NCBI GenBank assembly: GCA_021731145.1 | Contig: JAKFXX010000007.1 | Coordinates: 72,108-136,107 of the forward strand | Reading direction: 5' to 3' | From: Gammaproteobacteria bacterium | GTDB lineage: Bacteria; Pseudomonadota; Gammaproteobacteria; Ga0077554; Ga007554 | Length of the DNA: 64,000 nt | Part shown: positions 4,316-34,236 of the stretch, in pieces | Layout: each line of letters opens with the position of its first letter | Numbering within the stretch: the first letter of the stretch is position 1 | Notes under the pieces: model-generated | What the model was told of the DNA's origin: nothing | The model's database searches: none | Seen by the model: the letters and a program-made list of their open reading frames with translations, nothing else | Translations under genes and position numbers: made by a program

Positions 4316-4346
4316 TTTTCTACTCTATTTTTCGGGGTATCACCAC

Positions 4347-18032: not shown

Positions 18033-18037
18033 GTCGG

Positions 18038-18058
18038 CAGGTAATGCCGGATTACCTG
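18038..18058 (+). terminator. Small hairpin after tonB (weak terminator candidate)
   Basis: caggtaat / attacctg forms a perfect 8-bp stem with a 5-nt loop. No clean T-run follows. Confidence 0.3.
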
Positions 18059-18121
18059 ATGATTTTCATCCCTCTGGGGTGAGGATTGAGATGAAAAATT
18101 CACAGTGAGAAGAACCTGGAA

Positions 18122-19660: not shown

Positions 19661-19717
19661 CCTGTGTATTTTTTAGAGTCACGGAACACGGCCGGGACCA
19701 GACAGGAGGTGAATGTC

Positions 19718-20472: not shown

Positions 20473-21162
20473 ATGAGTCCAATTTCACGCCCTGCCTTTA
20501 GCCGTATTTTCCCCTTTGCGATTTATATTGCCTTTTTGGCCATTGCCTCCGGCATGTCCACCTTGCAGGATATGGGCTATATCAAAGACTGGGATTTGCG
20601 CTGGCTCTATCCTGTCAAGGTGGGTTTGGTGTTGCTGGCGCTGCTAGGGTTATGGCGCCATTATTCTGAACTTTCCAGGCCAGCCAATGTAAAGGCGGGG
20701 GACTGGATCGTTGCCGGGATCACGGGTGTTGTGGTTTTTGTGATCTGGATTAACCTGGACCAGGCGTGGGCGACAATGGGCAGCGAGTCACGCGGCTTCA
20801 GTCCGGTATCAGAAGGGGGCGAAATTGACTGGATACTGGTGGCATTCCGTCTGATAGGCGCGGCTATGATAGTGCCTGTCATGGAGGAGTTGTTCTGGCG
20901 TTCGTTTGTGATGCGCTGGATAGATAACCCGGATTTTCTTCGCATCAATCCAGCTCAAATCAGCATTAAGTCGTTTGTTATAGCTTCGGTACTTTTTGGT
21001 ATCGAACACAATCTGTGGCTGGCGGGCATCATTGCCGGGATTGCCTATGGTTGGCTATACAAGCGCAGTGCCAATCTTTGGGTTCCTGTATTTTCACATG
21101 CCGTCACCAACGGCCTGCTTGGCATCTGGGTGATCTATTCCGGAAATTGGCAGTTCTGGTGA
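20473..21162 (+). CDS. CPBP (CAAX-type) intramembrane metalloprotease, resembling the PEP-CTERM-associated subfamily
   Basis: Multi-TM protein with the motifs EELFWRSF, FGIEH and HAVTN. Confidence 0.85.
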   Translation: MSPISRPAFSRIFPFAIYIAFLAIASGMSTLQDMGYIKDWDLRWLYPVKVGLVLLALLGLWRHYSELSRPANVKAGDWIVAGITGVVVFVIWINLDQAWATMGSESRGFSPVSEGGEIDWILVAFRLIGAAMIVPVMEELFWRSFVMRWIDNPDFLRINPAQISIKSFVIASVLFGIEHNLWLAGIIAGIAYGWLYKRSANLWVPVFSHAVTNGLLGIWVIYSGNWQFW

Positions 21163-21359
21163 AACATCCTTAGCAGTCCTTCCTCTCGGGAAAGCCGCGC
21201 CTTTTTACCCCCTCCTCCTTTGGCTGATAGCCCATAAATTATTCGGCCGCTGTACGTAATCAGATTGTCATATTGACGGACTATTATTGCCCCCAGGTTA
21301 CATAGCTTTTAACGCCAGCGCATCCTTAATAACCGGCACTGCATTCTACGGAGATTAAC

Positions 21360-22133
21360 TTGAGAAAAATATTGTGTCTCATGGCGTGCGCCATTCTTGC
21401 TGCGTGCTCGGTAAATCCGCCAGCACATACCGGCAATGAAGAAATTCTCAATAAACTTGGGGAAATGAGCAAGCAGATCACTACGCTGAGTGATGATGTC
21501 AGCGTGATCAAGAAAGCGTTGGCCGTTGCGATGGGCGGCGCACCTGAGCAGCCGAAACCACCCGTTATTACTACGATTGATCTCGATGACGCCTCCCCTG
21601 TGAGGGGTGATGAAAATGCCACGGTGGCAATTGTTGAGTTTTCAGATTACCAGTGCCCATTTTGCGGCCGCTTTCATGCGCAGGTTCTACCCAGCCTGAA
21701 GAAAGCATATATAGATGCCGGGAAAGTCCGGCATATTTTTCGTGATTTTCCGCTTGATTTTCACCCTCAAGCAAAGGATGCGAGCATTGCTGCGAACTGT
21801 GTTGGTGAGCAGAAGGCCTATTGGGAGATGCACGACAGTTTGTTTGCAAATCAAAATCGCCTTGGCGCCGCTTTATATGAAGAGCTTGCTAAAAAGATGA
21901 ATCTTGATATGGCCTCTTTTCAAGCATGCCTGAAGAATGCGAAGCAGGCGGAAAAAATTGAGAAAGACCTGTCTTATGGGCAAAGCCTTGGGATAGACGG
22001 AACCCCCAGCTTTTTCATTGGACGCATTGAAGGCAAGAAGCTTGTGGATGTTAAGCAGATAGTAGGCGCACAGCCCCCGGCAGTGTTTGCCCAGGCAATT
22101 GAGGCTGCCTTGGGGGGCGCGCCTAAAAATTGA
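21360..22133 (+). CDS. DsbA-family thiol:disulfide oxidoreductase lipoprotein
   Basis: Lipobox LAACS (TTG start 21360; alternative ATG 21381). Thioredoxin active site YQCPFCGRF. Confidence 0.85.
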   Translation: MRKILCLMACAILAACSVNPPAHTGNEEILNKLGEMSKQITTLSDDVSVIKKALAVAMGGAPEQPKPPVITTIDLDDASPVRGDENATVAIVEFSDYQCPFCGRFHAQVLPSLKKAYIDAGKVRHIFRDFPLDFHPQAKDASIAANCVGEQKAYWEMHDSLFANQNRLGAALYEELAKKMNLDMASFQACLKNAKQAEKIEKDLSYGQSLGIDGTPSFFIGRIEGKKLVDVKQIVGAQPPAVFAQAIEAALGGAPKN

Positions 22134-22185
22134 TGGCTGTTTTACTTACGAGATGAGTCCTCAGAGTAAGTGATATTTGATTTGT

Positions 22186-23382
22186 ATGCCCATTTACCAT
22201 TATAGCGCCTTGACAGAACGCGGCGTTTTGGCCGCAGGCGAGGGGGTTGCCACCTCGAGCGAAGCTTTACGCCAGGAATTGGTGGCGAAGGGTCTGCTGG
22301 TACAAGACATCCGTCAAAAAAACTCTGGATTGGGCTTGCGCCTAAAGCGCATCAAAGCGGAGGAATTTCTGCTGTTTAACCAGGAGTTTGTGGCACTCAT
22401 ACGCGCGGGTTTGACAATACCCGACGCCTTGAAAATAGCGGCGGATCGTCCTGATAGCCCGATGTTGGCCAGCCTCCTGCGGCACGTGAATGAAGAGGTG
22501 CATGGTGGTGCGTTACTTTCCGAAGCCTGCTCCAGGCACCCCGAGGTATTCGATGGTCTTTACGTCTCTGCGATAAAAACCGGCGAAAAGACCGGCGTGC
22601 TGGCGACGGTTCTGGAGAAATATCAAGCCTACCTCAAACGCCGGGTTGGTTTGCAGAAAACCATTTCACATGCGCTGACCTATCCGGTGTTTTTGTTGCT
22701 GGTGTTAGGCACGGTGCTGGGTGTGCTGTTTTTGTTTGTCATGCCGCGTTTTGTTGCGATGTATACCGATTTTGGCGCTGAACTGCCGCTACCCACACAA
22801 ATTCTCGTTACCTTGGTAAATAATTTGCCTTTTTATTTACCCGTGGTGTTATTGCTGGGCACGCTCGGATGGTTCGCCATCCAAGCCTGGGTAAAGACCG
22901 ATGCAGGGCGTCTGCGGGCAGATCATTTGAAGGGACGGCTGCCGATACTGGGGAAGGTCTATCAGGATATTGCCATCGTGCAACTGGTGCGGACGCTTGC
23001 CACCCTGCTCTCCGGTGGTACGCCCTTGGTCGAGGCCATGCGCATCACGCAGGATTCACTTACCAATCGCGCCAAGGCGCGTGCGTTGGCTCAGGCCGAA
23101 AACCTGGTGATGGGGGGGCAAAGCCTGGCGTCTGCCATGCGCAATACGCAACTCATGCCGGGAACGGCAATAAAGATGATTGAGGTGGGCGAGGCGTCGG
23201 GTGGGCTTGATGCCATGCTGGAGGAAATCGCCCAGTTCTATGAGGAAGTACTGACTAATAAACTTGCACGCATGACAGCATTGATTGAGCCTTTATTGAT
23301 GCTGATCATGGGCGTCATGATAGGCGGCACGATCATCGTGATGTATTTGCCGATCTTTCAGATTGCGGACATCGTCAAATGA
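22186..23382 (+). CDS. gspF: Type II secretion / type IV pilus platform protein (GspF/PilC family)
   Basis: About 400 aa with a duplicated T2SS-F architecture and three TM segments. Its stop overlaps the next start (ATGA). Confidence 0.9.
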   Translation: MPIYHYSALTERGVLAAGEGVATSSEALRQELVAKGLLVQDIRQKNSGLGLRLKRIKAEEFLLFNQEFVALIRAGLTIPDALKIAADRPDSPMLASLLRHVNEEVHGGALLSEACSRHPEVFDGLYVSAIKTGEKTGVLATVLEKYQAYLKRRVGLQKTISHALTYPVFLLLVLGTVLGVLFLFVMPRFVAMYTDFGAELPLPTQILVTLVNNLPFYLPVVLLLGTLGWFAIQAWVKTDAGRLRADHLKGRLPILGKVYQDIAIVQLVRTLATLLSGGTPLVEAMRITQDSLTNRAKARALAQAENLVMGGQSLASAMRNTQLMPGTAIKMIEVGEASGGLDAMLEEIAQFYEEVLTNKLARMTALIEPLLMLIMGVMIGGTIIVMYLPIFQIADIVK

Positions 23383-25097
23383 GCCATCCCTTCAGTTACC
23401 GGAGGTTAGGAGAAATCCTGCTGGGCAAGCAGTATGTCAGCCATCATCAGATAGATGCCGTCCTGACAGGCAAAAAGGGCCGGCTGGGCGAGGTGTTGCT
23501 TGATGAAGGCCGCATTACGCCAGCGCAGTTGGCCGAGGCTCTGGCAGAACAGTGCGGCTTACCCTATGTTGACCTGGAGGGATTTGTTATTTCGCCAGAG
23601 TTGTACAGCTTGATATCTGCAACGCACGCCTATCAGTATGGGGTTGTTCCCTACCAGAGAGACGGAGAAGTGTTGATCGTTGTTGTTTCTCCCCCCTGCG
23701 ATATTACTTTGGCCGACCGCCTGGAATGTTTGAGCGGTTTACAGGTGCGCCTATTTGCCAGCAGTCCACAAGCGATTGCAGCGGTGTTGAAGCGCAGCGA
23801 AGGGAATTCCGAGGTACTGAAAGGCGTCTCCGAGGATTTCAAGCTTGCCATCGTCAAGGAGAATGACGATGGCAAGGAGCAATACGTGTCATTGGATGCG
23901 GCCAATGAAGATGCCGCAAGCCCGGTTATAAAGCTCATTAACAGCATGCTGTCGGCGGCCATTCAAAAGCGTGTCAGTGACGTACATATAGAGACCTACG
24001 AAAAAGGCATCTCGGTCAATTACCGTATCGATGGTGTTTTATACCCCGCGACCGATACGCTCGACCGGCGCCATCAGAGCGCGTTGGTGTCGCGCCTCAA
24101 GGTGATGGCGGAGTTGGATATCGCCGAAAAAAGGGTACCCCAGGATGGACGATTCAAGTTGCGCTTTGGTTCGCGTGACATAGATTTCAGGGTATCCATC
24201 CTGCCCAGTGTGTTCGGTGAAGATGTGGTTATCCGGATTCTGGACAAATCATCCATCACCGATGGGATGAAGAATCTACGTCTGGAAAGCTTGGGAATGG
24301 CACCTGAAATCCTGAAAAAATTTCGCAAGAGTATCCATGAACCCTATGGCATGGTGCTGATTACCGGCCCCACGGGCAGTGGAAAAACGACCACGCTGTA
24401 TGCGGCGCTCAGCGAATTGAATACCGGTGATGAAAAGATCATTACCATCGAAGATCCGGTCGAATATCAATTGCACGGCATCGTGCAAATCGCGGTAAAC
24501 GAGAAAAAAAATCTTACCTTTGCCAAGGGGCTGCGTTCCATACTGCGGCATGATCCTGACAAGATCATGGTAGGTGAAATACGCGATGGAGAAACAGCGC
24601 AGATTGCCGTTCAATCGGCGCTGACGGGGCATCTGGTGTTCACAACGGTGCATGCTAATAGTGCTTTCGATGTGCTCGGGCGCTTCAGCCATATGGGAGT
24701 GGATACGTATAACTTTGTTTCGGCGCTCAATTGCGTCATGGCACAACGCCTGGTTCGAATCATTTGCCCGAAATGCAAGCGTCAAACCGCGGTTGATGAT
24801 GACATTCTGGAGCTGTCCGGGCTCGATCCTGCACAATATCAAGATCAAGCATGGTACGAAGGCGCCGGCTGTGATTACTGCCACGGCACGGGTTATCGCG
24901 GCCGTGCCGCCGTTACCGAGTTTCTCGCTTTGTCGCCATCCATCCGCCAGATGATCATAGAACGGCGTCCGATCAATGAGATGCAGGCGGCGGCGGTGCA
25001 GAATGGGATGGTCACATTACGTCAATCCGCACTGGCGCTGGTGCTTTCAGGCCAGGCGACGCTGAAAGAGATTAATCGTGTCACTTTCGTTGAATAA
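23379..25097 (+). CDS. gspE: Type II secretion / type IV pilus assembly ATPase (GspE/PilB family)
   Basis: N-terminal T2SS-E N-domain (LGEVLLDEGRITPAQLAEALAEQ). Walker A GPTGSGKTTT. Tetracysteine CPKC...CDYC. Confidence 0.95.
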   Translation: MSHPFSYRRLGEILLGKQYVSHHQIDAVLTGKKGRLGEVLLDEGRITPAQLAEALAEQCGLPYVDLEGFVISPELYSLISATHAYQYGVVPYQRDGEVLIVVVSPPCDITLADRLECLSGLQVRLFASSPQAIAAVLKRSEGNSEVLKGVSEDFKLAIVKENDDGKEQYVSLDAANEDAASPVIKLINSMLSAAIQKRVSDVHIETYEKGISVNYRIDGVLYPATDTLDRRHQSALVSRLKVMAELDIAEKRVPQDGRFKLRFGSRDIDFRVSILPSVFGEDVVIRILDKSSITDGMKNLRLESLGMAPEILKKFRKSIHEPYGMVLITGPTGSGKTTTLYAALSELNTGDEKIITIEDPVEYQLHGIVQIAVNEKKNLTFAKGLRSILRHDPDKIMVGEIRDGETAQIAVQSALTGHLVFTTVHANSAFDVLGRFSHMGVDTYNFVSALNCVMAQRLVRIICPKCKRQTAVDDDILELSGLDPAQYQDQAWYEGAGCDYCHGTGYRGRAAVTEFLALSPSIRQMIIERRPINEMQAAAVQNGMVTLRQSALALVLSGQATLKEINRVTFVE

Positions 25098-26034
25098 TCT
25101 GTTTGACAGTATTGCACCGCGCTCTAAAGCCGTTTTTGGAATCGGCATCGGCAGGGATCGTCTTTCTGCCGCGCATGTTGTTACTACAAAACAGGCGAGA
25201 CATATCGAACGGATCAGGCAGATAAATCTGCCTTTCACACTATTCAGTGGCACCCCTACGCCCGAGATAGGTCATGGGCTTTCATCCTTGTTGGGCGAGT
25301 TATGCGGTGAAGTCAAAAGGTCGCATATTCCCATTCAGATCGCATTGCCTGACCCGGTGGTGAGCTTGCGTGTCTTCGAGTTGGGTGCCATTCCTAAAAC
25401 CAGAAAAGAGCAACTGGCGCTTGTCCACTGGCGGTTCAACAAGGAGTTGAATTTGGGGGGGCGCGCCATTGAATGCAGTTGCCAGCCTTTGGGCGTGGAT
25501 AACGACAAACATCTCTTGTTGGCGATGGCTATCGATCAGGCTTGGTTGGATTGCCTGAAGGAGGCGTGCCGGGACGCGGGTGTGATCAGTACGGTCATCG
25601 ACATGGCGGCGTGTTATCGCTCTAACCGTTTTTACGAACGCTTCTCTTGCGATGGCGCCGATGTAGTTGTTATTTCATTGGATGACGACGCCTGGACAGT
25701 GTCCATTTCGGACGCGCAAGGCCGTTTACGCTTTGTCCGCTCGCGTTGGCGTGAAACCATGCCGGAGCGGGAGAGGGAATATCAGGAAATAGCCGCCGAG
25801 TCAGAAAAGATGGTGCGCCTCTATGCGCATGCCGCCCCTGGCCGGAGCATAAAAAACATACACGCAATAGGTGATGCCAAGGATGTCTCTGGGGTCGCGG
25901 ATTTATTGGATCAACGCATGGCGGGGAAATGTATCAGGGTGGCCGGAGGAGTCGAGTTTATATCTAAGCAAGGCGTGTCCGGAAATACTGTAGACAGTAT
26001 GGTGTCAACCCTGTCGGCAACGGTGTTGCGATGA
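25078..26034 (+). CDS. PilM/GspL-like cytoplasmic assembly protein (actin-like fold inferred)
   Basis: Position and size fit. N-terminus AVFGIGIGRDRLSAAHVV resembles the PilM phosphate-1 strand. GTG start overlaps the gspE end. Confidence 0.45.
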   Translation: MSLSLNNLFDSIAPRSKAVFGIGIGRDRLSAAHVVTTKQARHIERIRQINLPFTLFSGTPTPEIGHGLSSLLGELCGEVKRSHIPIQIALPDPVVSLRVFELGAIPKTRKEQLALVHWRFNKELNLGGRAIECSCQPLGVDNDKHLLLAMAIDQAWLDCLKEACRDAGVISTVIDMAACYRSNRFYERFSCDGADVVVISLDDDAWTVSISDAQGRLRFVRSRWRETMPEREREYQEIAAESEKMVRLYAHAAPGRSIKNIHAIGDAKDVSGVADLLDQRMAGKCIRVAGGVEFISKQGVSGNTVDSMVSTLSATVLR

Positions 26035-26573
26035 AAATCATAACGAATTTTTCGACGTCATCCGCTGGCATGGCGCCGCGGATCATGATGATATTGTGGG
26101 CAACGGCGTTGCTGGCCGCGCTGTTAGCCGCTGGGATGGCTATGCAAACATCCCAATTGAAACAGACGAAGCTGGACTTGGAGCGTCAATTGTCAAAACT
26201 CCAAAACAGGCACGTCGCTGGGATCCCGAAAGTATTTCCCCGTCATGAAGAGCTTGTCACGTTAAAGAAGCGCATAGACGCTGTTTCATCCATATCAAAT
26301 AGTGGGGAAGGGTCACTATCCGCGTTCCTGAGAAAAATAGAGCTGCTATTGCCTGACGAAGCCTATCTTGTGACACTTCACTACAAGGGAGATACCAGGG
26401 AGGCTCAGATTACGGCTGAGGCAGGCAGCGCAAAAATACTTACCGGTTTTTTGCGTGATCTTGAAAAAGAGAAAAGCTTCCTTGAAGTTTTGCTGACAAA
26501 ACAGTCGCAGCGCACATTGAACGATAAGCAGATTGTTCAGTTCGATCTGCGTATAAAGGAGCGTCTTTCATGA
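26031..26573 (+). CDS. PilN/GspL-C-like bitopic inner-membrane assembly protein
   Basis: Single TM IMMILWATALLAALLAAGMA followed by a coiled segment and a ferredoxin-like-sized periplasmic domain. 4-bp overlap with neighbours on both sides. Confidence 0.5.
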   Translation: MKIITNFSTSSAGMAPRIMMILWATALLAALLAAGMAMQTSQLKQTKLDLERQLSKLQNRHVAGIPKVFPRHEELVTLKKRIDAVSSISNSGEGSLSAFLRKIELLLPDEAYLVTLHYKGDTREAQITAEAGSAKILTGFLRDLEKEKSFLEVLLTKQSQRTLNDKQIVQFDLRIKERLS

Positions 26574-27139
26574 AGGCGACGCATCCTTTTGCGGAAAACA
26601 TATGGTATTCGCTACGCCATCCCCTGATCAAGGCGGGGATGGCGGCTAGCGGGGCCGCCATAACCCTGGCCATTGTAGTCTGTTTTGGATATTGGATGCC
26701 CGTGCGTAACGATATCAACAGCCTCTCTGAATCGGTTAATCTCGAACGTAAGCGGATTGTTGATGATACGCGTTCCGTGCAAATTTATAACGCATATTTG
26801 AGCGCTATAAAACAGCTTTCGGCCATTGATAAAAAAATTAACAGCCCTGCCGGTCATGCAGATCTTGTGAATAATATTGATAGTATCGCAATACAAAGAA
26901 AAGTAACGATTATTTCTGAATCCTACGATGAGGGTAAAGAAAGGAATGGTTACACGTCGCTGTATATGGAGTTGGCATTACAGGGAGACTATCAGGGGCT
27001 GAATGAATTTCTTGTTGATATTCGTGGCCTGCCAACCTGGACTGTTGTTGGGGAAGGGTCGATAAGCCGCTTGGCAGGACAGCAGGATTTGGTTAAGGCG
27101 CAATTGCGTTTAATAACTTATCACAAGACGGGAATATGA
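26570..27139 (+). CDS. PilO/GspM-like bitopic inner-membrane assembly protein
   Basis: Single TM AASGAAITLAIVVCFGYW, a coiled segment and a periplasmic domain. Translationally coupled to neighbours. Confidence 0.5.
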   Translation: MKATHPFAENIWYSLRHPLIKAGMAASGAAITLAIVVCFGYWMPVRNDINSLSESVNLERKRIVDDTRSVQIYNAYLSAIKQLSAIDKKINSPAGHADLVNNIDSIAIQRKVTIISESYDEGKERNGYTSLYMELALQGDYQGLNEFLVDIRGLPTWTVVGEGSISRLAGQQDLVKAQLRLITYHKTGI

Positions 27140-27768
27140 AAAGTTACAAGGAAGTAGCCATCAGACATCGCAATGCAATATTGCTGGTGATGGCTTTTGT
27201 CTTGATGGCCGCCAACGTATTGAATTGGGGCGCATGGGGTCAGGTCAATTCTCGGGAAGCGCCTGGAAGGGGATCAACGGCAGGGGGGTTCCAGGTTTCT
27301 GATTTTCAGATAAAAAATATGAATGTGCCTGAGGAGAAAGATAGCGCGATTGGCCGTGACTTGTTCTATCCTGTTTTTGAAGAATATTCAGAACCTGTTA
27401 AAGAAATAACATCCATTGCGGAGGATAATGAAAATATTAAACAAATAACTGATGCCGAGATACCTCCTCCCCTTCCGCAAAAAACTCCTGAACAACTTGA
27501 AGAGGAGATCGCACGGTCCGATGCCGCTAATTTTAAATATATTGGTACGATTTGGCGTGGAGGACAAGGCCAGGCGCTTTTGGTGAACACGGACAAGCGT
27601 TATTTCGTCTTTTCTGGAGACAAGGCAGGCAGCCGATTCGTTGTTGAAATGATAACGAACGACGCGGTCTCTCTAAGAGACCCTGTCACAAACGTGACGG
27701 CTCAAGTACTAATATCGGGAGGACCCGCATTAAAAGCGGCTCAAGAGACAAGTGACATTGAAAGATAG
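27136..27768 (+). CDS. PilP/GspC-HR-like protein
   Basis: N-terminal TM AILLVMAFVLMAANVL. C-terminal beta-sandwich-like FKYIGTIWRGGQGQALLVN...GDKAGSRFVVEMITNDAVSLRD. Lies immediately upstream of the secretin. Confidence 0.45.
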   Translation: MKSYKEVAIRHRNAILLVMAFVLMAANVLNWGAWGQVNSREAPGRGSTAGGFQVSDFQIKNMNVPEEKDSAIGRDLFYPVFEEYSEPVKEITSIAEDNENIKQITDAEIPPPLPQKTPEQLEEEIARSDAANFKYIGTIWRGGQGQALLVNTDKRYFVFSGDKAGSRFVVEMITNDAVSLRDPVTNVTAQVLISGGPALKAAQETSDIER

Positions 27769-27774
27769 CGTAAA

Positions 27775-30057
27775 ATGAAACCGATAAAAAAAATAATATG
27801 TTATTTCATGGTGGTAGTGTTGTGCCTGTTGGTTGCATCTTGTGCCGGTCCGATTCGAAAGGCGGAAAACTATGAGGATAAACAGGAATGGATAAATGCG
27901 GTAATTGAGTACCGAAAGGCCTATAACGATGAGCCAAGGAACGTGGAATATAAGTCACGTCTGAAGCATGCCGAATTCAAGGCGGCCGACTATTATTACC
28001 ATCAAGGTATGCTACTTTTGGAGCGGGAAAAAATCGATGAAGCCATAGTTCAACTCCAGCAGGGCTTGACTGCAATGCCCGGTGATGAGCGGCTAATGCA
28101 GGCGATGAACAAAGCGCTTTCAAAAAGAGAGGCCAACAATCTTTATCAAGAAGGAGTTCTGATAGAAGGCGCGGGCAATGCCGACGAAGCGAAGCGCATA
28201 TTCCAAAGGGCCGTAAATGTCTATCCTGATCACAAAGCGGCATCAGAGGCCCTTGCCAATCTTGAAAATAAAAAAATCAAGGAGCGTGATACCGAGAAAT
28301 TCTCGTTGACTTCAGCATCCCCCATTTCGCTGAATTTCCGTCAAGCCGATATGCGCTCAGTTTTTGAGTTCGTTGCCAAATCATTTGGCATAAATATCAT
28401 ATTTGATGAGGCCATCAAGACCATATCCCCCGTCACGGTATTTGCCAAGGATGTTTCCTTCGAGCAAGCTTTGGCCCTGATTAATGTGGCAACCAAAACC
28501 TTCTATAAGAAAATCAGCAAAAATACCATCATAATTGTGCCGGATTCAAAGGACAAGCGTGGTCAATATGAAGATCATATGATGCGTACCTTTTATTTGA
28601 GCACTGTCCGGGCCAAGGAGGCGGCGGATATCCTGAGAGGTGTGATGACAATAAGGAAAATGATCGTCAACGAACCGTTAAATACGCTGGTTGTCCGTGA
28701 TACCGAGGAAGTTATCAGGCAGGTGGAAAAGATTATTGATGTAAACGACAGAAAGCCCGCTGAAATAGTTCTGGAAGTTGAGATCCTGGAGATGAATCGC
28801 ACCAAGGCAGAGCGTCTTGGCCTTGATCTTGGGTCGTATCAAATCAGCGCTGCGGTTCCGTCAGCCATCGCCCTGAGTGGATCCATTAGCGGCGCGATTG
28901 AGAAGGCTTCGCTACTTACGCTTCCTTCGGCGACCTTCAGGTTTTTTAAGCAGGATGTAGATGCCAGGACGCTTGCCAATCCCAAGGTAAGGGTTGTGAA
29001 CGGAAAATCCGCAAAAATCCATATTGGCGACCGTGTGCCGTTACGTGTTTCCACGATCATCAATACGACGGGGCAGGTGAACACAACTTATGATTACAAA
29101 GACATTGGTATAAAGCTTAGCGTTGAACCAACCATAAATCTGGACAATTCATCATCAGTAAAGCTTGGTTTGGAAGTGAGCTCCCTGGGGGCTAATCTGG
29201 GAACGGCGACAGAGCCGGCATTCCTTATCGGTAGCCGAAATGCTGAAACTTTTATGCTGTTGCGTGATGGTGAAACAGCGATTCTGGGCGGTCTTATTCG
29301 TGATGAGGATCGCAAGACGGTAGTAAGGGTTCCATTACTGGGAGACATTCCTGCCGCAGGTTCTCTATTTAGTTCTTACGATATGTCGAAGGGGCGCACC
29401 GACGTGTTGTTGACCATCACGCCTCGTGTTGTGCGAGGCTGGGATCTGCCCGCCAAGGAAGTCCGCCAGTTTTATTCTGGCACCGAAGATAAATATCTTG
29501 ATCAAGCGCCCTTTCAGAGCCTCGCTTCTCCATCATCGGCTGCGGTAAAGGAGGATGCCGGGATTCAGGAGTCCCCGCAGGCACCTGTTAACGAAAGTCC
29601 GGCGGCACCCCCATTGCCAGGCCAGTCGATTGCGCCAGGTATTGGGGGGAATGTTATCCAGTCTCCCGCGCTCGGCTTTTCTAAGCCAGCTTATATGGTC
29701 ATCAATCAAGATGAGGTGGATGTTCAGATTCTTTTTGACAACCTCGCAAAAAACAGGGAGATCGCCACGGAAATACAATTCAATTCAAAGGTGCTGGAAT
29801 TTGTCGGGGGTGATGCGGGCGAATTCAAAGTTGGTTTTTTTCAGGCCGACAAAAATGAGGCAGGAGATGCTGTACGTCTAAGCGCCGGGCTTGCAAATGA
29901 TGCCGTCTCGAAAGAGAAAGGTATTCTGGCAACCCTCCGGTTCCGTGCCTTGAAGCCAGGTGTTTCTGCTCTCACGTATGGTGCCTCATCGGTCAAAAAT
30001 GCGGCGGGTGACATCATTAATCCACAGTCAAATATCTCACGTGTCATTGTACGCTAG
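27775..30057 (+). CDS. gspD: Secretin (GspD/PilQ family) lipoprotein with N-terminal TPR module and C-terminal cohesin-like domain
   Basis: Lipobox LLVASCAG. TPR-like repeats (YRKAYNDEPRN..., AKRIFQRAVNVYPDHKAA). N-domain ISLNFRQADMRSVFEFVAKSFGINIIFDE. Secretin core RVPLLGDIPAAGSLFS. Pro-rich linker. C-terminus EIQFNSKVLEFVGGDAGEF...GILATLRFRALKPGVSAL. Confidence 0.9.
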   Translation: MKPIKKIICYFMVVVLCLLVASCAGPIRKAENYEDKQEWINAVIEYRKAYNDEPRNVEYKSRLKHAEFKAADYYYHQGMLLLEREKIDEAIVQLQQGLTAMPGDERLMQAMNKALSKREANNLYQEGVLIEGAGNADEAKRIFQRAVNVYPDHKAASEALANLENKKIKERDTEKFSLTSASPISLNFRQADMRSVFEFVAKSFGINIIFDEAIKTISPVTVFAKDVSFEQALALINVATKTFYKKISKNTIIIVPDSKDKRGQYEDHMMRTFYLSTVRAKEAADILRGVMTIRKMIVNEPLNTLVVRDTEEVIRQVEKIIDVNDRKPAEIVLEVEILEMNRTKAERLGLDLGSYQISAAVPSAIALSGSISGAIEKASLLTLPSATFRFFKQDVDARTLANPKVRVVNGKSAKIHIGDRVPLRVSTIINTTGQVNTTYDYKDIGIKLSVEPTINLDNSSSVKLGLEVSSLGANLGTATEPAFLIGSRNAETFMLLRDGETAILGGLIRDEDRKTVVRVPLLGDIPAAGSLFSSYDMSKGRTDVLLTITPRVVRGWDLPAKEVRQFYSGTEDKYLDQAPFQSLASPSSAAVKEDAGIQESPQAPVNESPAAPPLPGQSIAPGIGGNVIQSPALGFSKPAYMVINQDEVDVQILFDNLAKNREIATEIQFNSKVLEFVGGDAGEFKVGFFQADKNEAGDAVRLSAGLANDAVSKEKGILATLRFRALKPGVSALTYGASSVKNAAGDIINPQSNISRVIVR

Positions 30058-30538
30058 GAAATACAAACTCCTGGGAGTCACCTTCGTCGAGTTGCTGGTG
30101 ACGCTGGTGATTCTTTCGATTCTCGCGGCGGTTGCATTGCCTTATGCAGAAATTACGGTGCGCCGCAATAAGGAGATTGAATTGCGCCAGGCACTGCGTG
30201 ATATGCGCAGTGCCATTGACCGTTTTCATCTGGACTGGGAAACGGCAAAAATATCGAAATTGGATAATGATGTTAGCGAAAATGGTTACCCAAAAAAATT
30301 GCAAGTATTGGTTGAAGGAGTGGGGTCTGCCCAGGCCAAAGGGACAAAGATTAAATACTTGCGCCGAATTCCTGCCGACCCGTTCTCCGGCCCTGACAAG
30401 CCGTCACTGGAGCACTGGGTGCTGCGCGGTTATCAGGATGCGTCCGATGCCACCTCGTGGGGAGGAACGGATGTTTACGATGTACGGTCATTAAGCCGTC
30501 GCAAGGCGATTGACGGCAGCTTCTACAAGGATTGGTGA
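30041..30538 (+). CDS. GspG-like pseudopilin 1
   Basis: Prepilin motif KLLG/VTFVELLVTLVILSILAAVALP with Glu at +5. GTG at 30041 gives a 12-aa leader; the ATG at 29960 would give an implausible 39-aa leader inside the secretin gene. GspG-like YPKKL...RRIPADPFSG. Confidence 0.7.
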   Translation: MSLYARKYKLLGVTFVELLVTLVILSILAAVALPYAEITVRRNKEIELRQALRDMRSAIDRFHLDWETAKISKLDNDVSENGYPKKLQVLVEGVGSAQAKGTKIKYLRRIPADPFSGPDKPSLEHWVLRGYQDASDATSWGGTDVYDVRSLSRRKAIDGSFYKDW

Positions 30539-30539
30539 C

Positions 30540-30917
30540 ATGCGCCGCAGTATTGTCCACAAGGCGCGCGGCTTTACCTTGGTGGAGCTGATGGTGGTGC
30601 TGGTTTTGATTGTTATACTTGCCAGTCTCGCAGCACCCTTGGTAACCAGCTCAATACAGCGCGGCCGTGAAGCTGTGCTCAAGGAAGATTTATTAGTGAT
30701 GCGTAAAGCAATTGATGATTACTATGCGGATACGGGAAATTATCCGGAGGATATCAAGCAACTGATGGAAAAACGTTATCTGAGGAAAATTCCTGTTGAT
30801 CCTTTAACTGAACGCAGTGATACGTGGCGTGAGGTTCGTGATGATGCGGGGATTGTTGATATAAAAAGTGGAGCGGATGGAAAATCCGCCAATGATGAGT
30901 CATACAGCGAATGGTAG
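30540..30917 (+). CDS. GspG-like pseudopilin 2
   Basis: Leader MRRSIVHKARG/FTLVELMVVLVLIVILASLAAP with Glu at +5. AIDDYYADTGNYPEDIKQL...RKIPVDPLT. Confidence 0.85.
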   Translation: MRRSIVHKARGFTLVELMVVLVLIVILASLAAPLVTSSIQRGREAVLKEDLLVMRKAIDDYYADTGNYPEDIKQLMEKRYLRKIPVDPLTERSDTWREVRDDAGIVDIKSGADGKSANDESYSEW

Positions 30918-30957
30918 TTTATTGTCTTAATCTTAATTTGATGTGAGAGGCTGGTCT

Positions 30958-31392
30958 ATGAAAAAGAGCATGAGATGGTCTTCGGGTTTTACCATGATGG
31001 AGTTGCTGATTGTTCTGGTTATTATCGGATTGTTAGCGGCTTTGGTGGGTCCTGCATTGTTCCAGCGCATCAATCCGGCAAAACAATCGGCGGCGCGCAG
31101 TCAGATTGAAAATTTCATGACAGCTCTCGACACCTATTTTGTAGATAACGGACACTTTCCAACGACACAACAGGGTTTTTTGGCGCTTCGTGTTAAACCG
31201 GAAGGTGATGAAAAGTGGGCGGGGCCTTATCTTAAAAAAGACGTGCCAAACGATCCATGGGGAAATCCATACCAATACCGCGCTCCTGGACACAATGGTG
31301 GCTACGATATTTTATCTCTGGGCGCGGATGGTAAAGAGGGTGGCGAAAATGAAAATATGGATATCAATAGCTGGGAGATCGACAAGAAATAA
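30958..31392 (+). CDS. gspG: Type II secretion major pseudopilin GspG
   Basis: A gagagg RBS precedes the start. MKKSMRWSSG/FTMMELLIVLVIIGLLAALVGP. Canonical GspG body ARSQIENFMTALDTYFVDNGHFPT...GPYLKK..PNDPWGNPYQYRAPGHNGGYDILSLGADGKEGG. Confidence 0.95.
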   Translation: MKKSMRWSSGFTMMELLIVLVIIGLLAALVGPALFQRINPAKQSAARSQIENFMTALDTYFVDNGHFPTTQQGFLALRVKPEGDEKWAGPYLKKDVPNDPWGNPYQYRAPGHNGGYDILSLGADGKEGGENENMDINSWEIDKK

Positions 31393-31897
31393 TCATGATG
31401 GATTTACCTATATCATGGTGCTGGTCGCGGTTGTAATAACCGGCCTGATGGCAGGTGTTGCAGCCACCATCGCATCGCGGGTTATGCAGGCCGAGAGAGA
31501 GAAGGAATTGCTTTTCCGTGGCATGGCTTATCAGAATGCGATAAAAAGCTATTATCAGGCTGGCGCGCAACTTAATACGTTTATCTTTCCGCGCTCGTTA
31601 AACGATTTGCTGAATGACCCGCGCTTTCCCGGCAAACATCATATTCGTGCTCTGTATGTGGACCCAATGGGGAAAGGACGGCGGGAGTGGCGCGTGATCC
31701 GTTCAATTGATGGCGGTATCGCCGGCGTTGTCAGCTCAAGCAAACAAAAATCTTTAAAGACCGCCAACTTCCCCGCTGGACTGGAATCTCTGGCGGGCAA
31801 GAAGTCCTATGCGGAATGGGTTTTTCAGTACAACGCTCCCGCAGCAATCCAAACTCCACGTTCCGTCATGCCACGTGTACCTGTGCAGCAGAAATAG
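31349..31897 (+). CDS. Atypical pseudopilin lacking Glu5
   Basis: Candidate leader MKIWISIAGRSTRNNHDG/FTYIMVLVAVVITGLMAGVAA has Met, not Glu, at +5. GspG-like AIKSYYQAG...LNDPRFPG. The start is uncertain and overlaps the gspG end. Confidence 0.6.
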   Translation: MKIWISIAGRSTRNNHDGFTYIMVLVAVVITGLMAGVAATIASRVMQAEREKELLFRGMAYQNAIKSYYQAGAQLNTFIFPRSLNDLLNDPRFPGKHHIRALYVDPMGKGRREWRVIRSIDGGIAGVVSSSKQKSLKTANFPAGLESLAGKKSYAEWVFQYNAPAAIQTPRSVMPRVPVQQK

Positions 31898-31899
31898 AT

Positions 31900-34236
31900 T
31901 CAAGATTCCGCCGCCTCTCCCGCCTCTCCCGCCTCTCCCGCCTCTCCCGCCTCATACGGTTCGGCATAGCCACATTCCTTTTGCGGACAGACCTTTTCCG
32001 TGCCACGACGCTTGGTGGTTTTGATGGTCATCACCGGCCATTGGCATTTTGGGCAAGGCTCGCTGAGGGGCTCATTCCACACCGCGTAGTTGCAATCCGG
32101 ATAGGTTGCACAGGAGTAGAAGATCTTGCCGTAGCGTGACTTGCGCTTGAGCAGGGTGCCCTTGTGACACTGCGGGCAGTCCACGCCGGTGTCGGCGGGC
32201 TTCTCCAGGGGTTCTATGTGTTTGCAGGCAGGGTAATTGCTGCAACCGATGAACTTGCCGTAGCGGCCCTGGCGGAAGATAAGCGGAGATTCACACTTGG
32301 GGCAGGTGCGGCCTTCCACGACTTCGGGCTCTGTCGCAGCGCCCGCTTCCTCATTGAGGTTGCGGGTGTAATCGCACTCCGGGTAGGTGGTGCAGCCGAT
32401 GAACCGTCCGCGTTTTCCGAGGCGGATCGAGAGCGGTTTGCCGCATTTGGGGCAGGCTTCGTCCAACGCCTCCTGGGTGACATCCTGGCGCTTAACGTTC
32501 TCTTCGGTAGTGTCGACCTGAGTCTTGAAGGGCGTCCAGAAATCGCGCAGGAGCGGAACCCAGTCTTTTTCACCGCGCGACACCGCATCGAGCTCGTCTT
32601 CGAGATGGGCGGTGAAGTCGTAATCCACATAACGCGTGAAATATTCGGTGAGGAACTTGTTGACAATGCGTCCCACGTCGGTGGGTTTGAAGCGCCGCTT
32701 GTCCAGCTCTACATACTCACGCTGCTGGAGCGTGGAGATGATGCTCGCATAGGTGGAGGGGCGGCCGATGCCGTGTTCTTCGAGCGCCTTGATCAGGCTG
32801 GCTTCGCCATAACGCGGGGGTGGCTCGGTGAAATGCTGTTCGGGCTGGATGCCAAGGAGGTCAATTTTTTCCCCTGCCAGCAGCACGGGCAGGCGGCGTT
32901 CATCCTCGCCTTCTTTACCTTCTTCTTTGCTGTCGTCCACGCTTTCCTGGTACACCGCCATGAAGCCGGGGTGGACTATGGTGGAGCCGTTGGCGCGGAA
33001 CAGATTGCCTTCGCCGGCGCTCATGTCGACGCTCACGGTGTCGAGGGTGGCGTGGATCATCTGGCAGGCGATGGTGCGCTTCCAGATCAGGTCATACAGC
33101 TTGTACTGGTCAGCGGTCAGACTGTCCTTGATAGACTCCGGTGCGCGTTCCGCAGCAGTGGGGCGTATCGCCTCGTGGGCCTCCTGGGCATTTTTGGATT
33201 TTGTTTTGTAAACATGCGGTTGCTCGGGCACGTTGTCGCTGCCGAAACGGGTGGCAATGAGGCTACGGATATCGTCCAGCGCCTCGTTTGCCAGGCTCAC
33301 CGAGTCGGTACGCATATAGCTGATCAAACCCACTGCGCCACCGCCGATGTCGATACCCTCATAGAGCTGCTGGGCGAGGCGCATGGTGCGCTGAGCGGTA
33401 AAGCCCAGTTTGCGCGATGCCTCCTGTTGCAGTGTCGAGGTGGTAAACGGCGGTGAAGGATTGCGTTTACGCTGCTTCTTGTCCACCTTGGCGACCACCA
33501 GGGCGCCCGCTGCGGCGCGCAGCAATTCCTCCTCGATTTTGGCGGCCTGCTCGCCATCGGTGACGCTGAACTGGCTGACTTTTTCACCTTGATACTGGAT
33601 GAGTTTGGCGCTGAAGCGGTCGCCTTTTTTGGCGAGGTTGGAGAGTATCGTCCAGTATTCGCGCGTTACGAATTTTTCGATCTCTTCCTCGCGCTCGACG
33701 ATCATGCGCAGCGCCGGGCTTTGCACGCGCCCGGCGGAGAGGCCACGGCGGATTTTTTTCCACAGCAGCGGGGAGAGGTTGAAGCCCACCAGGTAATCCA
33801 GCGCGCGGCGCGCCTGCTGGGCGTTGACCAGCTCCATGGATACCTCGCGCGGATTCGCCACGGCCTCGTTCACGGCGCGTTTGGTGATCTCGTAGAACAC
33901 CACGCGATGCACGGGCTTGTCCTTGAGGAGCTTCTTTTCCTTGAGTATTTCCAGGAGATGCCAGGAGATGGCCTCGCCTTCACGGTCCGGATCGGTTGCC
34001 AGATAGAGCACATCGGCCTTTTTCATGGCGCTGACGATGGCGTCGACGTGCTTTTCATTCCTTTCAATAGTCTGGTACTTCATGGCGAAGCTGTGCTCTG
34101 TATCGACAGCGCCCTCTTTGGGCAGCAGGTCACGCACATGGCCGTAGGAGGCGAGGATGTCGAAGTCCTTGCCCAGGTATTTTTTCAAGGTCTTGGCCTT
34201 GGCGGGCGATTCAACGATAAGGAGATTTTTGGTCAC
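31900..34236 (-). CDS. topA: DNA topoisomerase I
   Basis: Toprim start LLIVESPAKAKTLKKYLG. Active-site region ISYMRTDS. Four C-terminal CxxC zinc-ribbon repeats. Size 778 aa. Confidence 0.97.
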   Translation of the reverse strand: MTKNLLIVESPAKAKTLKKYLGKDFDILASYGHVRDLLPKEGAVDTEHSFAMKYQTIERNEKHVDAIVSAMKKADVLYLATDPDREGEAISWHLLEILKEKKLLKDKPVHRVVFYEITKRAVNEAVANPREVSMELVNAQQARRALDYLVGFNLSPLLWKKIRRGLSAGRVQSPALRMIVEREEEIEKFVTREYWTILSNLAKKGDRFSAKLIQYQGEKVSQFSVTDGEQAAKIEEELLRAAAGALVVAKVDKKQRKRNPSPPFTTSTLQQEASRKLGFTAQRTMRLAQQLYEGIDIGGGAVGLISYMRTDSVSLANEALDDIRSLIATRFGSDNVPEQPHVYKTKSKNAQEAHEAIRPTAAERAPESIKDSLTADQYKLYDLIWKRTIACQMIHATLDTVSVDMSAGEGNLFRANGSTIVHPGFMAVYQESVDDSKEEGKEGEDERRLPVLLAGEKIDLLGIQPEQHFTEPPPRYGEASLIKALEEHGIGRPSTYASIISTLQQREYVELDKRRFKPTDVGRIVNKFLTEYFTRYVDYDFTAHLEDELDAVSRGEKDWVPLLRDFWTPFKTQVDTTEENVKRQDVTQEALDEACPKCGKPLSIRLGKRGRFIGCTTYPECDYTRNLNEEAGAATEPEVVEGRTCPKCESPLIFRQGRYGKFIGCSNYPACKHIEPLEKPADTGVDCPQCHKGTLLKRKSRYGKIFYSCATYPDCNYAVWNEPLSEPCPKCQWPVMTIKTTKRRGTEKVCPQKECGYAEPYEAGEAGEAGEAGEAAES
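31909..31953. repeat. 9-bp tandem repeat (cgcctctcc, about 4.5 copies) inside the 3' end of topA
   Basis: Read directly from the sequence. On the minus strand it encodes the C-terminal EAGEAGEAGEAGEA tail of TopA. Confidence 0.9.

What the first reader, a model, noticed from the sequence alone, without database searches (positions are those of the whole stretch)
22186..31897. Hybrid T2SS/T4P-like machine: GspF-GspE-PilMNOP-like-secretin-GspG paralogues, without GspC/K/I/J or a prepilin peptidase
**Seen in sequence.**
- The order is F, E, four small assembly genes with PilM/N/O/P-like architectures, the secretin, then four pseudopilin genes. One of these is an unmistakable GspG.
- Consecutive genes overlap by 4 bp (23379, 26031, 26570, 27136) or by 20 bp (25078), indicating translational coupling.
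- I recognised no GspC with a PDZ domain, no GspK/I/J tip complex, no retraction ATPase (PilT) and no prepilin peptidase in the window.

**Inference.** This is a dedicated pseudopilus-type exporter or short-fibre machine borrowing the T4P alignment complex. Its substrates could be the neighbouring PEP-CTERM or PBP-like proteins, or components of the fibre system. The region also looks more AT-rich than tpsA by eye.
Basis: partly seen in the sequence, partly recalled or inferred. Interest (0 to 1): 0.55.

Follow-up and report, generated by a model that had tools for sequence, protein, structure and literature searches.

The report
Atypical PilMNOP-type type II secretion cassette
This is a real, tightly packed 11-gene operon for a variant type II secretion machine that uses pilus-type assembly proteins. 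It belongs to a widespread but barely studied class already noticed in Geobacter and Ralstonia, so it is a new member of a known kind, not a new kind of system.

Summary
Window 22186-31897 (+) encodes, in order:
- GspF/PilC platform protein
- GspE/PilB-family ATPase
- PilM-, PilN-, PilO- and PilP-like proteins
- a lipoprotein secretin
- four pseudopilins, one of which is a bona fide GspG

The 4-nt and 20-nt gene overlaps are as stated. The window contains no GspC/H/I/J/K/L/M, PilT or prepilin peptidase.

The same 11-gene order recurs in about 30 loci from Gamma-, Beta- and Alphaproteobacteria, Spirochaetia and FCPU426. In these, the "missing" parts are absent from the cassette and its sampled flanks, not just out of view. 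Rhodobacterales versions do carry a prepilin peptidase gene next to the platform gene.

It is not a new kind of system:
- Geobacter and Pelobacter "Pul" clusters have the same order (pulF-E-M-N-O-P-Q-G-oxpG).
- The Ralstonia "unorthodox T2SS" shares seven homologous genes.

Added features:
- a predicted c-di-GMP-binding MshEN N-terminus on the ATPase
- a TPR lipoprotein module and a C-terminal cohesin-like domain on the secretin
- a fourth pseudopilin that always lacks Glu5

Instead, 12 of 28 analysed loci have a giant SpvB/RHS (Tc-toxin-like) gene right after the cassette. The window's own lineage has none, so its cargo is unknown.

The parts
22186..23382 (+). Inner-membrane platform protein (GspF/PilC family). 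The ORF opens at TTG 22177; the ATG is at 22186.
   Evidence: Pfam T2SSF scores 179.6 bits. NCBIfam GspF scores 295 bits (cutoff 424) and PilC 275 bits (cutoff 700), both below cutoff. Homologues are 32-97% identical and syntenic in the related loci.
23379..25097 (+). Assembly ATPase of the GspE/PilB family, with an N-terminal MshEN domain carrying two RLGxxLLxxG...Q motifs (predicted c-di-GMP receptor).
   Evidence: T2SSE scores 434.6 bits and MshEN 58.3 bits. PilB scores 559 bits and GspE 540 bits, both below cutoff. The c-di-GMP motif model NF053729 scores 43-46.5 bits against a cutoff of 38. Over the core alone, GspE scores 520 bits and PilB 496. Full-length alignment is found only to PilB/PilF structures. 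The start overlaps the platform gene by 4 nt.
25078..26034 (+). PilM-like cytoplasmic actin-fold protein, 318 aa, no transmembrane segment.
   Evidence: No Pfam or NCBIfam hit. A profile of 14 syntenic homologues hits PilM structures 2ych, 3jc8 and 5eox at E 1e-5 to 7e-5. It overlaps the ATPase gene by 20 nt, and a similar overlap is seen in other loci.
26031..26573 (+). PilN-like bitopic membrane protein, 180 aa, with a conserved N-terminal MK(I/V)xTNF motif.
   Evidence: Pfam PilN scores 33.1 bits against a gathering score of 22.8. The N-terminal motif is conserved in 10 of 12 homologues. ATGA overlap with the preceding gene.
26570..27139 (+). PilO/GspM-like bitopic membrane protein, 189 aa.
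   Evidence: Pfam PilO scores 21.6 bits (gathering score 22). GspM scores 16 bits, a weak hit. Size and position are conserved. ATGA overlap.
27136..27768 (+). PilP/GspC-HR-like protein, 210 aa: N-terminal transmembrane helix, Pro-rich linker, C-terminal beta domain. No PDZ domain and no lipobox.
   Evidence: A profile of 11 homologues hits PilP structures 2ivw and 4av2 at E 4e-5 to 7e-5. ATGA overlap.
27775..30057 (+). Outer-membrane secretin lipoprotein, 760 aa. Domains in order: lipobox (Cys23), TPR module (about residues 35-170), N0, one N1, secretin core, Pro-rich linker, C-terminal cohesin-like beta-sandwich (about 630-760).
   Evidence: Secretin scores 126.8 bits, with Secretin_N, N0 and TPR hits. 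GspD 163, PilQ 151 and MshL 83 bits are all below cutoff. Cys23 is invariant. The C-terminus hits Pfam Cohesin at 25.9 bits (gathering score 24.1), and 7 of 8 homologues also hit. In the AF2 model the TPR module (pLDDT 80-92) and the C-terminal sandwich (70-87) are confident; the rest is poor.
30041..30538 (+). Pseudopilin G1. Mature protein is 153 aa, cleaved at G|VTFVE, with Glu5. A highly conserved GspG-like paralogue. An alternative start is ATG 29999.
   Evidence: N_methyl and weak GspG (29.7 bits) hits. The mature length is 153 aa in nearly all homologues. About 600 clusters at 50% identity match at E<=1e-10.
30540..30917 (+). Pseudopilin G2. Mature protein is 114 aa, cleaved at G|FTLVE.
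   Evidence: N_methyl scores 32.5 bits and GspG 57.5 bits, below the 88.85 cutoff. The Glu5 motif is conserved. PGAP names the Aliiroseovarius homologue 'GspH family'.
30958..31392 (+). Major pseudopilin GspG (G3). Mature protein is 134 aa, cleaved at G|FTMME.
   Evidence: TIGR01710 scores 164.8 bits against a cutoff of 88.85. Pfam T2SSG scores 132.9 bits. It is 44% identical to E. coli GspG.
31349..31897 (+). Pseudopilin G4. Mature protein is about 164 aa, cleaved at G|FTYIM, with no Glu5. It overlaps the end of G3 by 44 nt.

Best explanation
This is a self-contained, translationally coupled operon for an atypical type II secretion machine.

**Proposed mechanism (inferred)**
- Cargo exported by Sec into the periplasm is pushed through the secretin by a short pseudopilus.
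- The pseudopilus is built mainly of GspG (G3), with G1 and G2 as minor subunits. G4 has no Glu5 and is the likely capping or priming subunit.
- Assembly is driven by a GspE/PilB-family ATPase on the GspF platform.
- Instead of GspL/M/C, the platform is linked to the secretin by an unfused PilM-PilN-PilO set and a membrane-anchored PilP-like protein.
- The ATPase N-terminus is an MshEN domain, so activity is probably gated by c-di-GMP.
- The secretin is a lipoprotein with a fused TPR module. This is possibly a built-in pilotin.
- The secretin's C-terminal cohesin-like domain could dock a partner or cargo.
- Prepilin processing is done by a peptidase encoded elsewhere in the genome.

**What is shown and what is inferred**
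- Shown: gene content, homologies, synteny, motifs and the island-like setting.
- Inferred: secretion activity, c-di-GMP control, the self-piloting role, the role of G4 and the identity of the cargo.
For: - **Core parts identified:** all core components were found and the observed features check out.
- **No pilus-specific parts:** there is no T4a-type pilin and no PilT.
- **Conserved unit:** the 11 genes keep their order in about 30 loci across five phylum/class-level lineages. Cultured Aliiroseovarius crassostreae carries the cassette on plasmids, where a prepilin peptidase gene heads it.
- **Experimental precedent:** Geobacteraceae 'Pul' clusters have the same order. According to PMC3543383, the Pul system is required for secretion of the multicopper oxidase OmpB.
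- **Secretion-type neighbours:** in 12 of 28 analysed loci, and also in L056, a giant signal-peptide-bearing SpvB/FG-GAP/TcdB/RHS protein follows the cassette on the same strand. The Ralstonia homologue also sits next to an rhs gene.
- **c-di-GMP motif:** the motif model is above its cutoff.
Against: - No cargo gene is identifiable in the window or in its close relatives L001, L002, L003 and L013.
- Orthology with the experimentally studied Geobacter system could not be tested by sequence.
- The PilMNOP platform and PilB-like N-terminus are features of fibre-forming T4aP and MSHA machines.
- The TPR module shows no specific similarity to pilotins, only generic TPR hits.
- The secretin model is low-confidence outside two domains.
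- No function was tested experimentally here.
Confidence: 0.6

Rival explanations
1. It builds a non-retractile, c-di-GMP-controlled surface fibre for adhesion, analogous to the MSHA pilus, and does not secrete proteins.
For: - It has a PilM/N/O/P platform.
- The ATPase aligns full-length only with PilB/PilF structures and carries the MshE-type c-di-GMP motif.
- No cargo is visible in the window.
Against: - The major subunit is an above-cutoff GspG, and all four pilin-like proteins are short and GspG-like.
- MshL scores 82.8 bits against a cutoff of 250.
- No PilY1-type adhesin and no T4a pilin is present.
- Neighbours in other genomes are giant secreted proteins.
Confidence: 0.2
2. It is the outer-membrane export route for PEP-CTERM/exosortase proteins or for an exopolysaccharide.
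For: - A pepcterm_CAAX protease gene (TIGR03008, 241 bits, cutoff 81) lies about 1 kb upstream.
- A PEP-CTERM-like ORF is at 3/12-602.
- Secretins and pseudopilins have been linked to slime export in other bacteria (PMC12475490).
Against: - The CAAX gene is precisely deleted in L001, while the cassette there is intact.
- No PEP-CTERM tails were found in the flanks of 57 related loci.
- No exosortase was found among the scanned window ORFs, and none ranked among the commonest families in the large flanking ORFs sampled from related loci. The trehalose-synthesis glycosyltransferases upstream in L054 are an unrelated cluster on the opposite strand.
Confidence: 0.07
3. It is a DNA-uptake (competence) pseudopilus.
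For: - The cassette abuts topA-smg-dprA.
- PMC3543383 remarks that pul clusters lie near DNA uptake and metabolism genes.
Against: - The adjacency is not conserved even among 87-92% identical relatives. L013 joins the cassette to window 52.7 kb, and L001 and L002 have other right-hand flanks.
- topA-smg-dprA-def-fmt looks like a housekeeping gene block.
- No ComEA/ComEC homologue appeared in the Pfam scans of the window ORFs. The flanks of related loci were only partly scanned and were not searched for these genes.
Confidence: 0.04

Closest known systems
Geobacteraceae/Pelobacter 'Pul' atypical type II secretion system (pulF-E-M-N-O-P-Q-G-oxpG; Mehta et al. 2006, as cited in PMC3543383)
   Same: - The gene order is identical: platform, ATPase, four small M/N/O/P genes, a secretin annotated as a lipoprotein, then pseudopilins.
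- No GspC/H/I/J/K/L is listed in either cluster.
- The Pul system is reported as needed for secretion of a specific protein, OmpB.
   Different: - Two adjacent pseudopilins (PulG, OxpG) plus a distant TklG there, against four adjacent ones here.
- It is not known whether Pul proteins have the TPR, cohesin or MshEN features.
- Sequence orthology was not tested. Geobacter proteins did not appear among the best 120 hits of two secretin searches.
Ralstonia solanacearum 'unorthodox' T2SS on the megaplasmid (PMC6428702)
   Same: - It has homologues of the secretin (33% identity), G1 (37%), G2 (40%), G4 (34%), GspG (54%), the platform (28%) and the ATPase (44%).
- It also has PilO-like and PilP-like genes.
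- It lies next to an RHS-repeat gene.
   Different: - The gene order is rearranged: D-O-P-G1-G2-G4-G3-F-E-two small genes.
- The secretin match starts at query residue 132, so most of the TPR module is not matched.
- Its function is also untested.
Canonical T2SS (Gsp/Pul/Eps/Xcp)
   Same: - It shares the GspD/E/F/G core, a GspG major pseudopilin with the usual processing motif, and the absence of a retraction ATPase.
   Different: - There is no GspC, L or M as such. Unfused PilM, PilN and PilO and a PDZ-less PilP-like protein take their place.
- There is no GspH/I/J/K.
- The secretin has one N1 domain plus TPR and cohesin-like modules.
- The D, E and F proteins score below the equivalog cutoffs.
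Type IVa pilus machine (PilBCMNOPQ, PilF/W pilotin)
   Same: - It has the PilM/N/O/P alignment subcomplex.
- The ATPase N-terminus is PilB-like.
- TPR lipoprotein and secretin functions are both present, here on one chain.
   Different: - There is no T4a pilin, PilT or PilY1/minor-pilin set, and no AMIN domain was detected in the secretin.
- PilB, PilC and PilQ all score below cutoff.
MSHA pilus (MshE/G/L/I/J/K/N)
   Same: - The ATPase N-terminus has the MshEN c-di-GMP motif.
- A TPR component is present (MshN there, a fused module here).
- PilMNOP-type accessory genes are present.
   Different: - MshL scores 82.8 bits against a cutoff of 250.
- There is no MshA-type pilin and no MshM ATPase.
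- The gene order differs.

Membership tests
Canonical T2SS | GspG major pseudopilin | tested here: met
   TIGR01710 scores 164.8 bits against a cutoff of 88.85. Pfam T2SSG scores 132.9 bits.
Canonical T2SS | GspE, GspF and GspD at equivalog level | tested here: not met
   GspE scores 540.5 bits (cutoff 630), GspF 295.3 (cutoff 424) and GspD 163.2 (cutoff 351). The Pfam superfamily domains are present.
Canonical T2SS | GspC (HR plus PDZ), GspL and GspM | tested here: not met
   There is no tblastn hit with the E. coli proteins in the window or in 52 loci. PilM/N/O/P-like proteins occupy that place.
Canonical T2SS | Minor pseudopilins GspH/I/J/K | tested here: not met
Canonical T2SS | Prepilin peptidase GspO | tested here: not met
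   It is absent from the window. It is present next to the cassette in Rhodobacterales loci and on Aliiroseovarius plasmids. Whole-genome presence cannot be tested here.
Type IVa pilus | PilM, PilN, PilO and PilP alignment proteins | tested here: met
   PilN is above the Pfam gathering score and PilO is 0.4 bits below it. PilM and PilP are supported by profile hits to solved structures at E about 1e-5.
Type IVa pilus | PilB, PilC and PilQ at equivalog level, a T4a major pilin, and PilT | tested here: not met
   PilB scores 559 bits (cutoff 676), PilC 275 (cutoff 700) and PilQ 151 (cutoff 284). No T4a pilin was found. There is no second ATPase.
MSHA pilus | MshL secretin and MshE ATPase with a c-di-GMP-binding N-terminus | tested here: inconclusive
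   The c-di-GMP motif model scores 43-46.5 bits against a cutoff of 38, so that part is met. MshL scores 82.8 bits against a cutoff of 250, so that part is not met.
Geobacter/Pelobacter Pul atypical T2SS | Gene order F-E-M-N-O-P-secretin lipoprotein-pseudopilins | tested here: met
   The window order was compared with Table S4 of PMC3543383. The lipobox Cys23 is invariant.
Geobacter/Pelobacter Pul atypical T2SS | Sequence orthology of the components, and secretion of a defined substrate | not testable with these tools
   No Geobacter sequences could be retrieved. No experiment was possible.
Ralstonia unorthodox T2SS | Seven core genes (D, E, F, GspG and three further pseudopilins) | tested here: met
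   All seven have tblastn homologues at 28-54% identity in CP047137. The gene order differs.

The most novel reading that the evidence does not exclude
This cassette family may be a dedicated outer-membrane export route for giant, signal-peptide-bearing Tc-toxin-like/Rhs 'cocoon' proteins (SpvB, FG-GAP, TcdB_midN and RHS domains; more than 2400-3400 aa). That would be a T2SS-type pathway for polymorphic toxins, which are otherwise known to leave cells by type VI secretion, lysis cassettes or Gram-positive routes. The secretin's cohesin-like domain or the cargo's conserved N-terminal region might mediate recognition. In the window's own lineage the cargo gene would lie elsewhere in the genome or would have been replaced.
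Probability: 0.3. Interest if true: 0.75.

Novelty: new member of a known kind. Interest (0 to 1): 0.4.

Why it matters
- **An under-annotated family.** It is widespread: about 600 clusters of the signature pseudopilin G1 at 50% identity. Even so, PGAP labels six of the twelve genes 'hypothetical protein' on the Aliiroseovarius plasmid. A clear part list helps annotate many genomes of sulfur- and iron-oxidising Proteobacteria, Rhodobacterales, Ralstonia and others. That list is the PilMNOP-type platform, the TPR/cohesin lipoprotein secretin, four GspG-like pseudopilins (one without Glu5) and the MshEN ATPase.
- **Evolution of the T2SS.** It shows a T2SS-type machine working with an unfused T4aP-type platform. 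This bears on how GspL/M/C arose.
- **A testable cargo hypothesis.** The repeated adjacency to giant Rhs/Tc-like proteins gives a concrete hypothesis for how such proteins cross the outer membrane. It can be tested in cultured carriers.

Tried and rejected
- **Geobacter orthology.** Two secretin searches, one with the window protein and one with a profile of the most distant members, returned only family members from MAGs. No Geobacter PulQ appeared among the best 120 hits, so orthology stays untested.
- **Cohesin-like C-terminus against solved structures.** A sequence-profile search found nothing. Only Pfam supports the assignment.
- **TPR module against pilotins.** PilF appears at E=0.008 among generic TPR hits. 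This is not specific, so 'fused pilotin' is inference only.
- **G1 and G4 profiles against PDB.** Only the N-terminal helix matches pilins.
- **AF2 model of the whole secretin.** Mean pLDDT is 54, so it was used only for the TPR and C-terminal domains.
- **Promoter and terminator scan.** Promoter-like sites were no more frequent than in shuffled sequence. Terminator-like sites were about two SD above it, but none marks an operon boundary.
- **No tRNA in the window** to mark an integration site.
- **First PEP-CTERM regex missed the ORF at 12-602**. It was found later by NCBIfam.
- **Minus-strand ORFs 53482-55839.** They were first taken as genes without hits. They are shadows of a plus-strand phosphoketolase-family gene.
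- **TpsA as cargo.** I considered it and rejected it. It has its own TpsB partner, and it shows no similarity to the giant neighbours seen elsewhere.

Full report
**Observation**

Window 22177-31897 holds eleven co-directional genes.
- Pfam and NCBIfam identify a T2SSF platform protein (179.6 bits).
- They also identify a T2SSE ATPase with an MshEN domain, a PilN-domain protein (33.1 bits, gathering score 22.8) and a weak PilO match (21.6 bits, gathering score 22).
- Next comes a secretin with TPR, N0 and Secretin_N, then pilin-like proteins with N-methylation motifs. One of these passes the GspG equivalog model (164.8 bits, cutoff 88.85).
- The 318-aa and 210-aa proteins have no direct family hit. 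Profiles built from syntenic homologues hit solved PilM structures (2ych, 3jc8, 5eox; E about 1e-5) and PilP structures (2ivw, 4av2; E about 4e-5).

The stated overlaps are exact:
- ATGA overlaps at 23379, 26031, 26570 and 27136
- a 20-nt overlap at 25078

Other checks also hold.
- The cassette's GC is 0.499, against 0.58 on either side.
- tblastn with E. coli K-12 GspC, H, I, J, K, L, M and O finds nothing in the window.
- There is no second secretion ATPase.
- The remaining large ORFs are housekeeping genes: topA, smg, dprA, def, fmt, rsmB, ntrYX, trkAH, a class II ribonucleotide reductase and glcDEF.

**Anatomy in more detail**

*ATPase*
- It reaches neither equivalog cutoff: PilB 559 bits (cutoff 676) and GspE 540 bits (cutoff 630).
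- Split in two, the core (residues 180-572) leans slightly towards GspE (520 bits against 496 for PilB).
- The N-terminal 179 residues are PilB/MshEN-like and pass the c-di-GMP motif model NF053729 (46.5 bits, cutoff 38).
- Two RLGxxLLxxG...Q motifs are visible in the sequence.
- Only PilB/PilF structures align along the full length. GspE aligns over the core only.

*Platform proteins*
- The PilN-like proteins share an N-terminal MK(I/V)xTNF motif. From my own knowledge, this recalls the PilM-binding N-terminus of PilN.
- The PilP-like protein has a transmembrane helix in place of a lipobox, and no PDZ domain. It therefore looks like a GspC homology region without the PDZ domain.

*Secretin*
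- It has an invariant lipobox cysteine, Cys23.
- Its TPR module is confidently predicted (pLDDT 80-92).
- Its C-terminal beta-sandwich (pLDDT 70-87) hits Pfam Cohesin above the gathering score (25.9 bits against 24.1). Seven of eight homologues also hit.

*Pseudopilins*
- G1 (mature 153 aa), G2 (114 aa) and G3 (GspG, 134 aa) have Glu5.
- G4 (about 164 aa) has G|FTYIM. It lacks Glu5 in every homologue in which the cleavage motif was found.

**Comparative evidence**

*Synteny*
- A scan of one genome per species with a secretin profile gave 52 loci.
- tblastn of all window proteins shows the same 11-gene order in about 30 long loci. These come from:
  - Gammaproteobacteria (Acidiferrobacterales, Sulfurifustaceae, Thiohalomonadaceae, Microbulbifer)
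  - Betaproteobacteria (Gallionellaceae, Thiobacillus)
  - Alphaproteobacteria (Rhodobacterales, including Yoonia sediminilitoris DSM 29955)
  - Spirochaetia
  - FCPU426
- Four small genes of conserved size always sit between the ATPase and the secretin.
- The absent Gsp components are therefore truly absent from the unit.

*Prepilin peptidase*
- In Rhodobacterales loci a GspO homologue lies just upstream of the platform gene.
- On Aliiroseovarius crassostreae plasmids an A24 peptidase gene heads the cassette.
- This indicates that the pseudopilins do need a prepilin peptidase. The window's organism must supply it from elsewhere.

*Family size*
- The signature pseudopilin G1 matches about 600 clusters at 50% identity at E<=1e-10.
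- The secretin has more than 1200 homologues at E<=1e-10. The 120 best are nearly all full-length.

**Setting in the window**

The AT-rich stretch spans about 14.9-31.9 kb. It also contains:
- an ExbB-like protein with DUF2341 and LamG domains
- ExbD
- a TonB-like protein
- a Porin_5 protein
- a coiled-coil protein
- a PEP-CTERM-associated CAAX protease (TIGR03008, 241 bits)
- a DsbA-like lipoprotein

These neighbours occur only in close relatives.

Nucleotide comparison with relatives that are 87-92% identical shows that similarity stops at, or within about 20 nt of, the end of G4, at 31897-31917.
- L013 continues into the homologue of window 52713-60335.
- L001 and L002 continue into unrelated DNA.
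- L001 lacks the CAAX gene precisely.

This breakpoint pattern and the GC offset are both confined to this lineage. Together they suggest a horizontally acquired or frequently rearranged island. One MAG carries two diverged copies of the cassette, L013 and L003.

**Cargo**

- A PEP-CTERM-like ORF exists at 3/12-602, with the tail VPEAETWA, a hydrophobic stretch and RRR. It lies about 21 kb away.
- No such tails occur in the flanks of 57 related loci.

What does recur is a giant gene directly after G4 on the same strand.
- In 12 of 28 analysed loci it encodes SpvB, FG-GAP, TcdB_toxin_midN and RHS repeats.
- L056 has a 3435-aa example.
- These proteins begin with signal-peptide-like segments. 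Several share a conserved region just after that segment.
- Other loci carry large Ig-like, beta-helix or transglutaminase proteins instead.
- The Ralstonia homologue also has an RHS-repeat gene next to its secretin. [quoted passage not shown]
- Nothing similar is present in the window or its close relatives. The large TpsA upstream has its own TpsB.

The cargo of this particular locus is therefore unknown.

**Comparison with known systems**
- Table S4 of the Pelobacter carbinolicus genome paper lists two 'Pul' clusters: pulF, pulE, pulM, pulN, pulO, pulP, pulQ (secretin lipoprotein), pulG and oxpG. This is the same order as here.
[quoted passage not shown] - The Ralstonia megaplasmid 'unorthodox T2SS' shares seven homologous genes (28-54% identity) and has PilO-like and PilP-like genes, in a different order.
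- The window cassette is therefore a further member of an already noticed, poorly characterised class. It is not a new kind.
- I could not retrieve Geobacter sequences, so that relationship rests on architecture only.

**Verdict**
- The finding is real and correctly read as a T2SS/T4P hybrid architecture.
- The most likely function is protein export by a short GspG pseudopilus on a PilMNOP-type platform, probably under c-di-GMP control (confidence about 0.6).
- A non-retractile fibre is the main rival (about 0.2).
- Novelty is modest. The more interesting lead lies outside this window: the family's repeated linkage to giant Rhs/Tc-like proteins.

Noticed in passing
window 14899-20416: A co-directional, AT-rich cluster lies upstream of the cassette. 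It comprises an ExbB/TolQ-like protein with N-terminal DUF2341 and LamG domains, ExbD, a TonB-like protein, a Porin_5 protein (582.9 bits) and a coiled-coil protein of 250 aa. Apart from the ExbB-like gene, which lies beyond the flank retrieved for those loci, the cluster is seen only in the close relatives L001 and L002. Its function and any link to the secretion cassette are unknown.
   Followed up: partly
window 20473-21162, compared with L001: This gene encodes a PEP-CTERM-associated CAAX protease (TIGR03008, 241 bits). It is present in the window and in L002. It is precisely missing in L001, where the alignment jumps from window 20536 to 21203. It is therefore dispensable for the cassette.
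   Followed up: yes
window 21360-22133: A DsbA-like thioredoxin lipoprotein gene ends 44 nt before the platform gene, on the same strand. It is conserved in L001, L002 and L013. It may be co-transcribed and may help fold exported proteins.
   Followed up: no
window 3-602: This ORF has a PEP-CTERM-type tail (VPEAETWA, then a hydrophobic stretch, then RRR). It is probably cut by the start of the window. It implies that the genome has an exosortase system.
   Followed up: partly
window 2576-14711: A two-partner secretion pair. The TpsB has POTRA_2 and ShlB domains. The TpsA is 3454 aa, with ESPR, TPS and DUF3739 domains. Its GC is about 0.58-0.60.
   Followed up: partly
window 31897-31902 and 52713: There is a synteny breakpoint at the cassette's 3' end. 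In L013 (90-92% nucleotide identity) the cassette is followed directly by the homologue of window 52713-60335, which skips the 20.8 kb from topA to the DUF4325 gene. L001 and L002 have different right-hand flanks again.
   Followed up: partly
window 31900-31950: The stop codons of G4 and the convergent topA gene are 2 nt apart. The 3' end of topA carries a 9-bp tandem repeat of four copies, encoding (GEA)n at the TopA C-terminus.
   Followed up: no
window 51036-52503: A second low-GC patch (0.505-0.538 over 50-54 kb). It holds a 152-aa fragment resembling the N-terminus of defence ATPases (AriA, PtuA, GajA; E 1e-9 to 1e-10). It also holds a 338-aa protein with an HTH and a DUF4325/STAS-like domain. 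This may be the remnant of a defence locus.
   Followed up: partly
window 53482-55839: The two minus-strand ORFs (341 and 438 aa, no family hits) are probably shadows. The plus-strand ORF 53578-55785 (735 aa) matches phosphoketolase/transketolase structures (E 3e-22).
   Followed up: yes
L003 and L013 (both from MAG JACPOZ01): One groundwater gammaproteobacterial MAG carries two diverged copies of the whole cassette. Their secretins are 91% and 67% identical to the window's.
   Followed up: no
L012 14453-, L022 12979-, L041 11638-, L032 20011-, L025 14772-: The giant SpvB/RHS proteins downstream of the cassette share a conserved stretch just after the signal-peptide-like segment (SLPPEVQALE...FDRDT.T.YTAFG). 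It is a candidate recognition region.
   Followed up: no
L057 (Aliiroseovarius crassostreae plasmid NZ_CP080773, 75410-85196): The cassette is plasmid-borne in a cultured oyster pathogen. PGAP calls six of its twelve genes, including the secretin, 'hypothetical protein'.
   Followed up: partly
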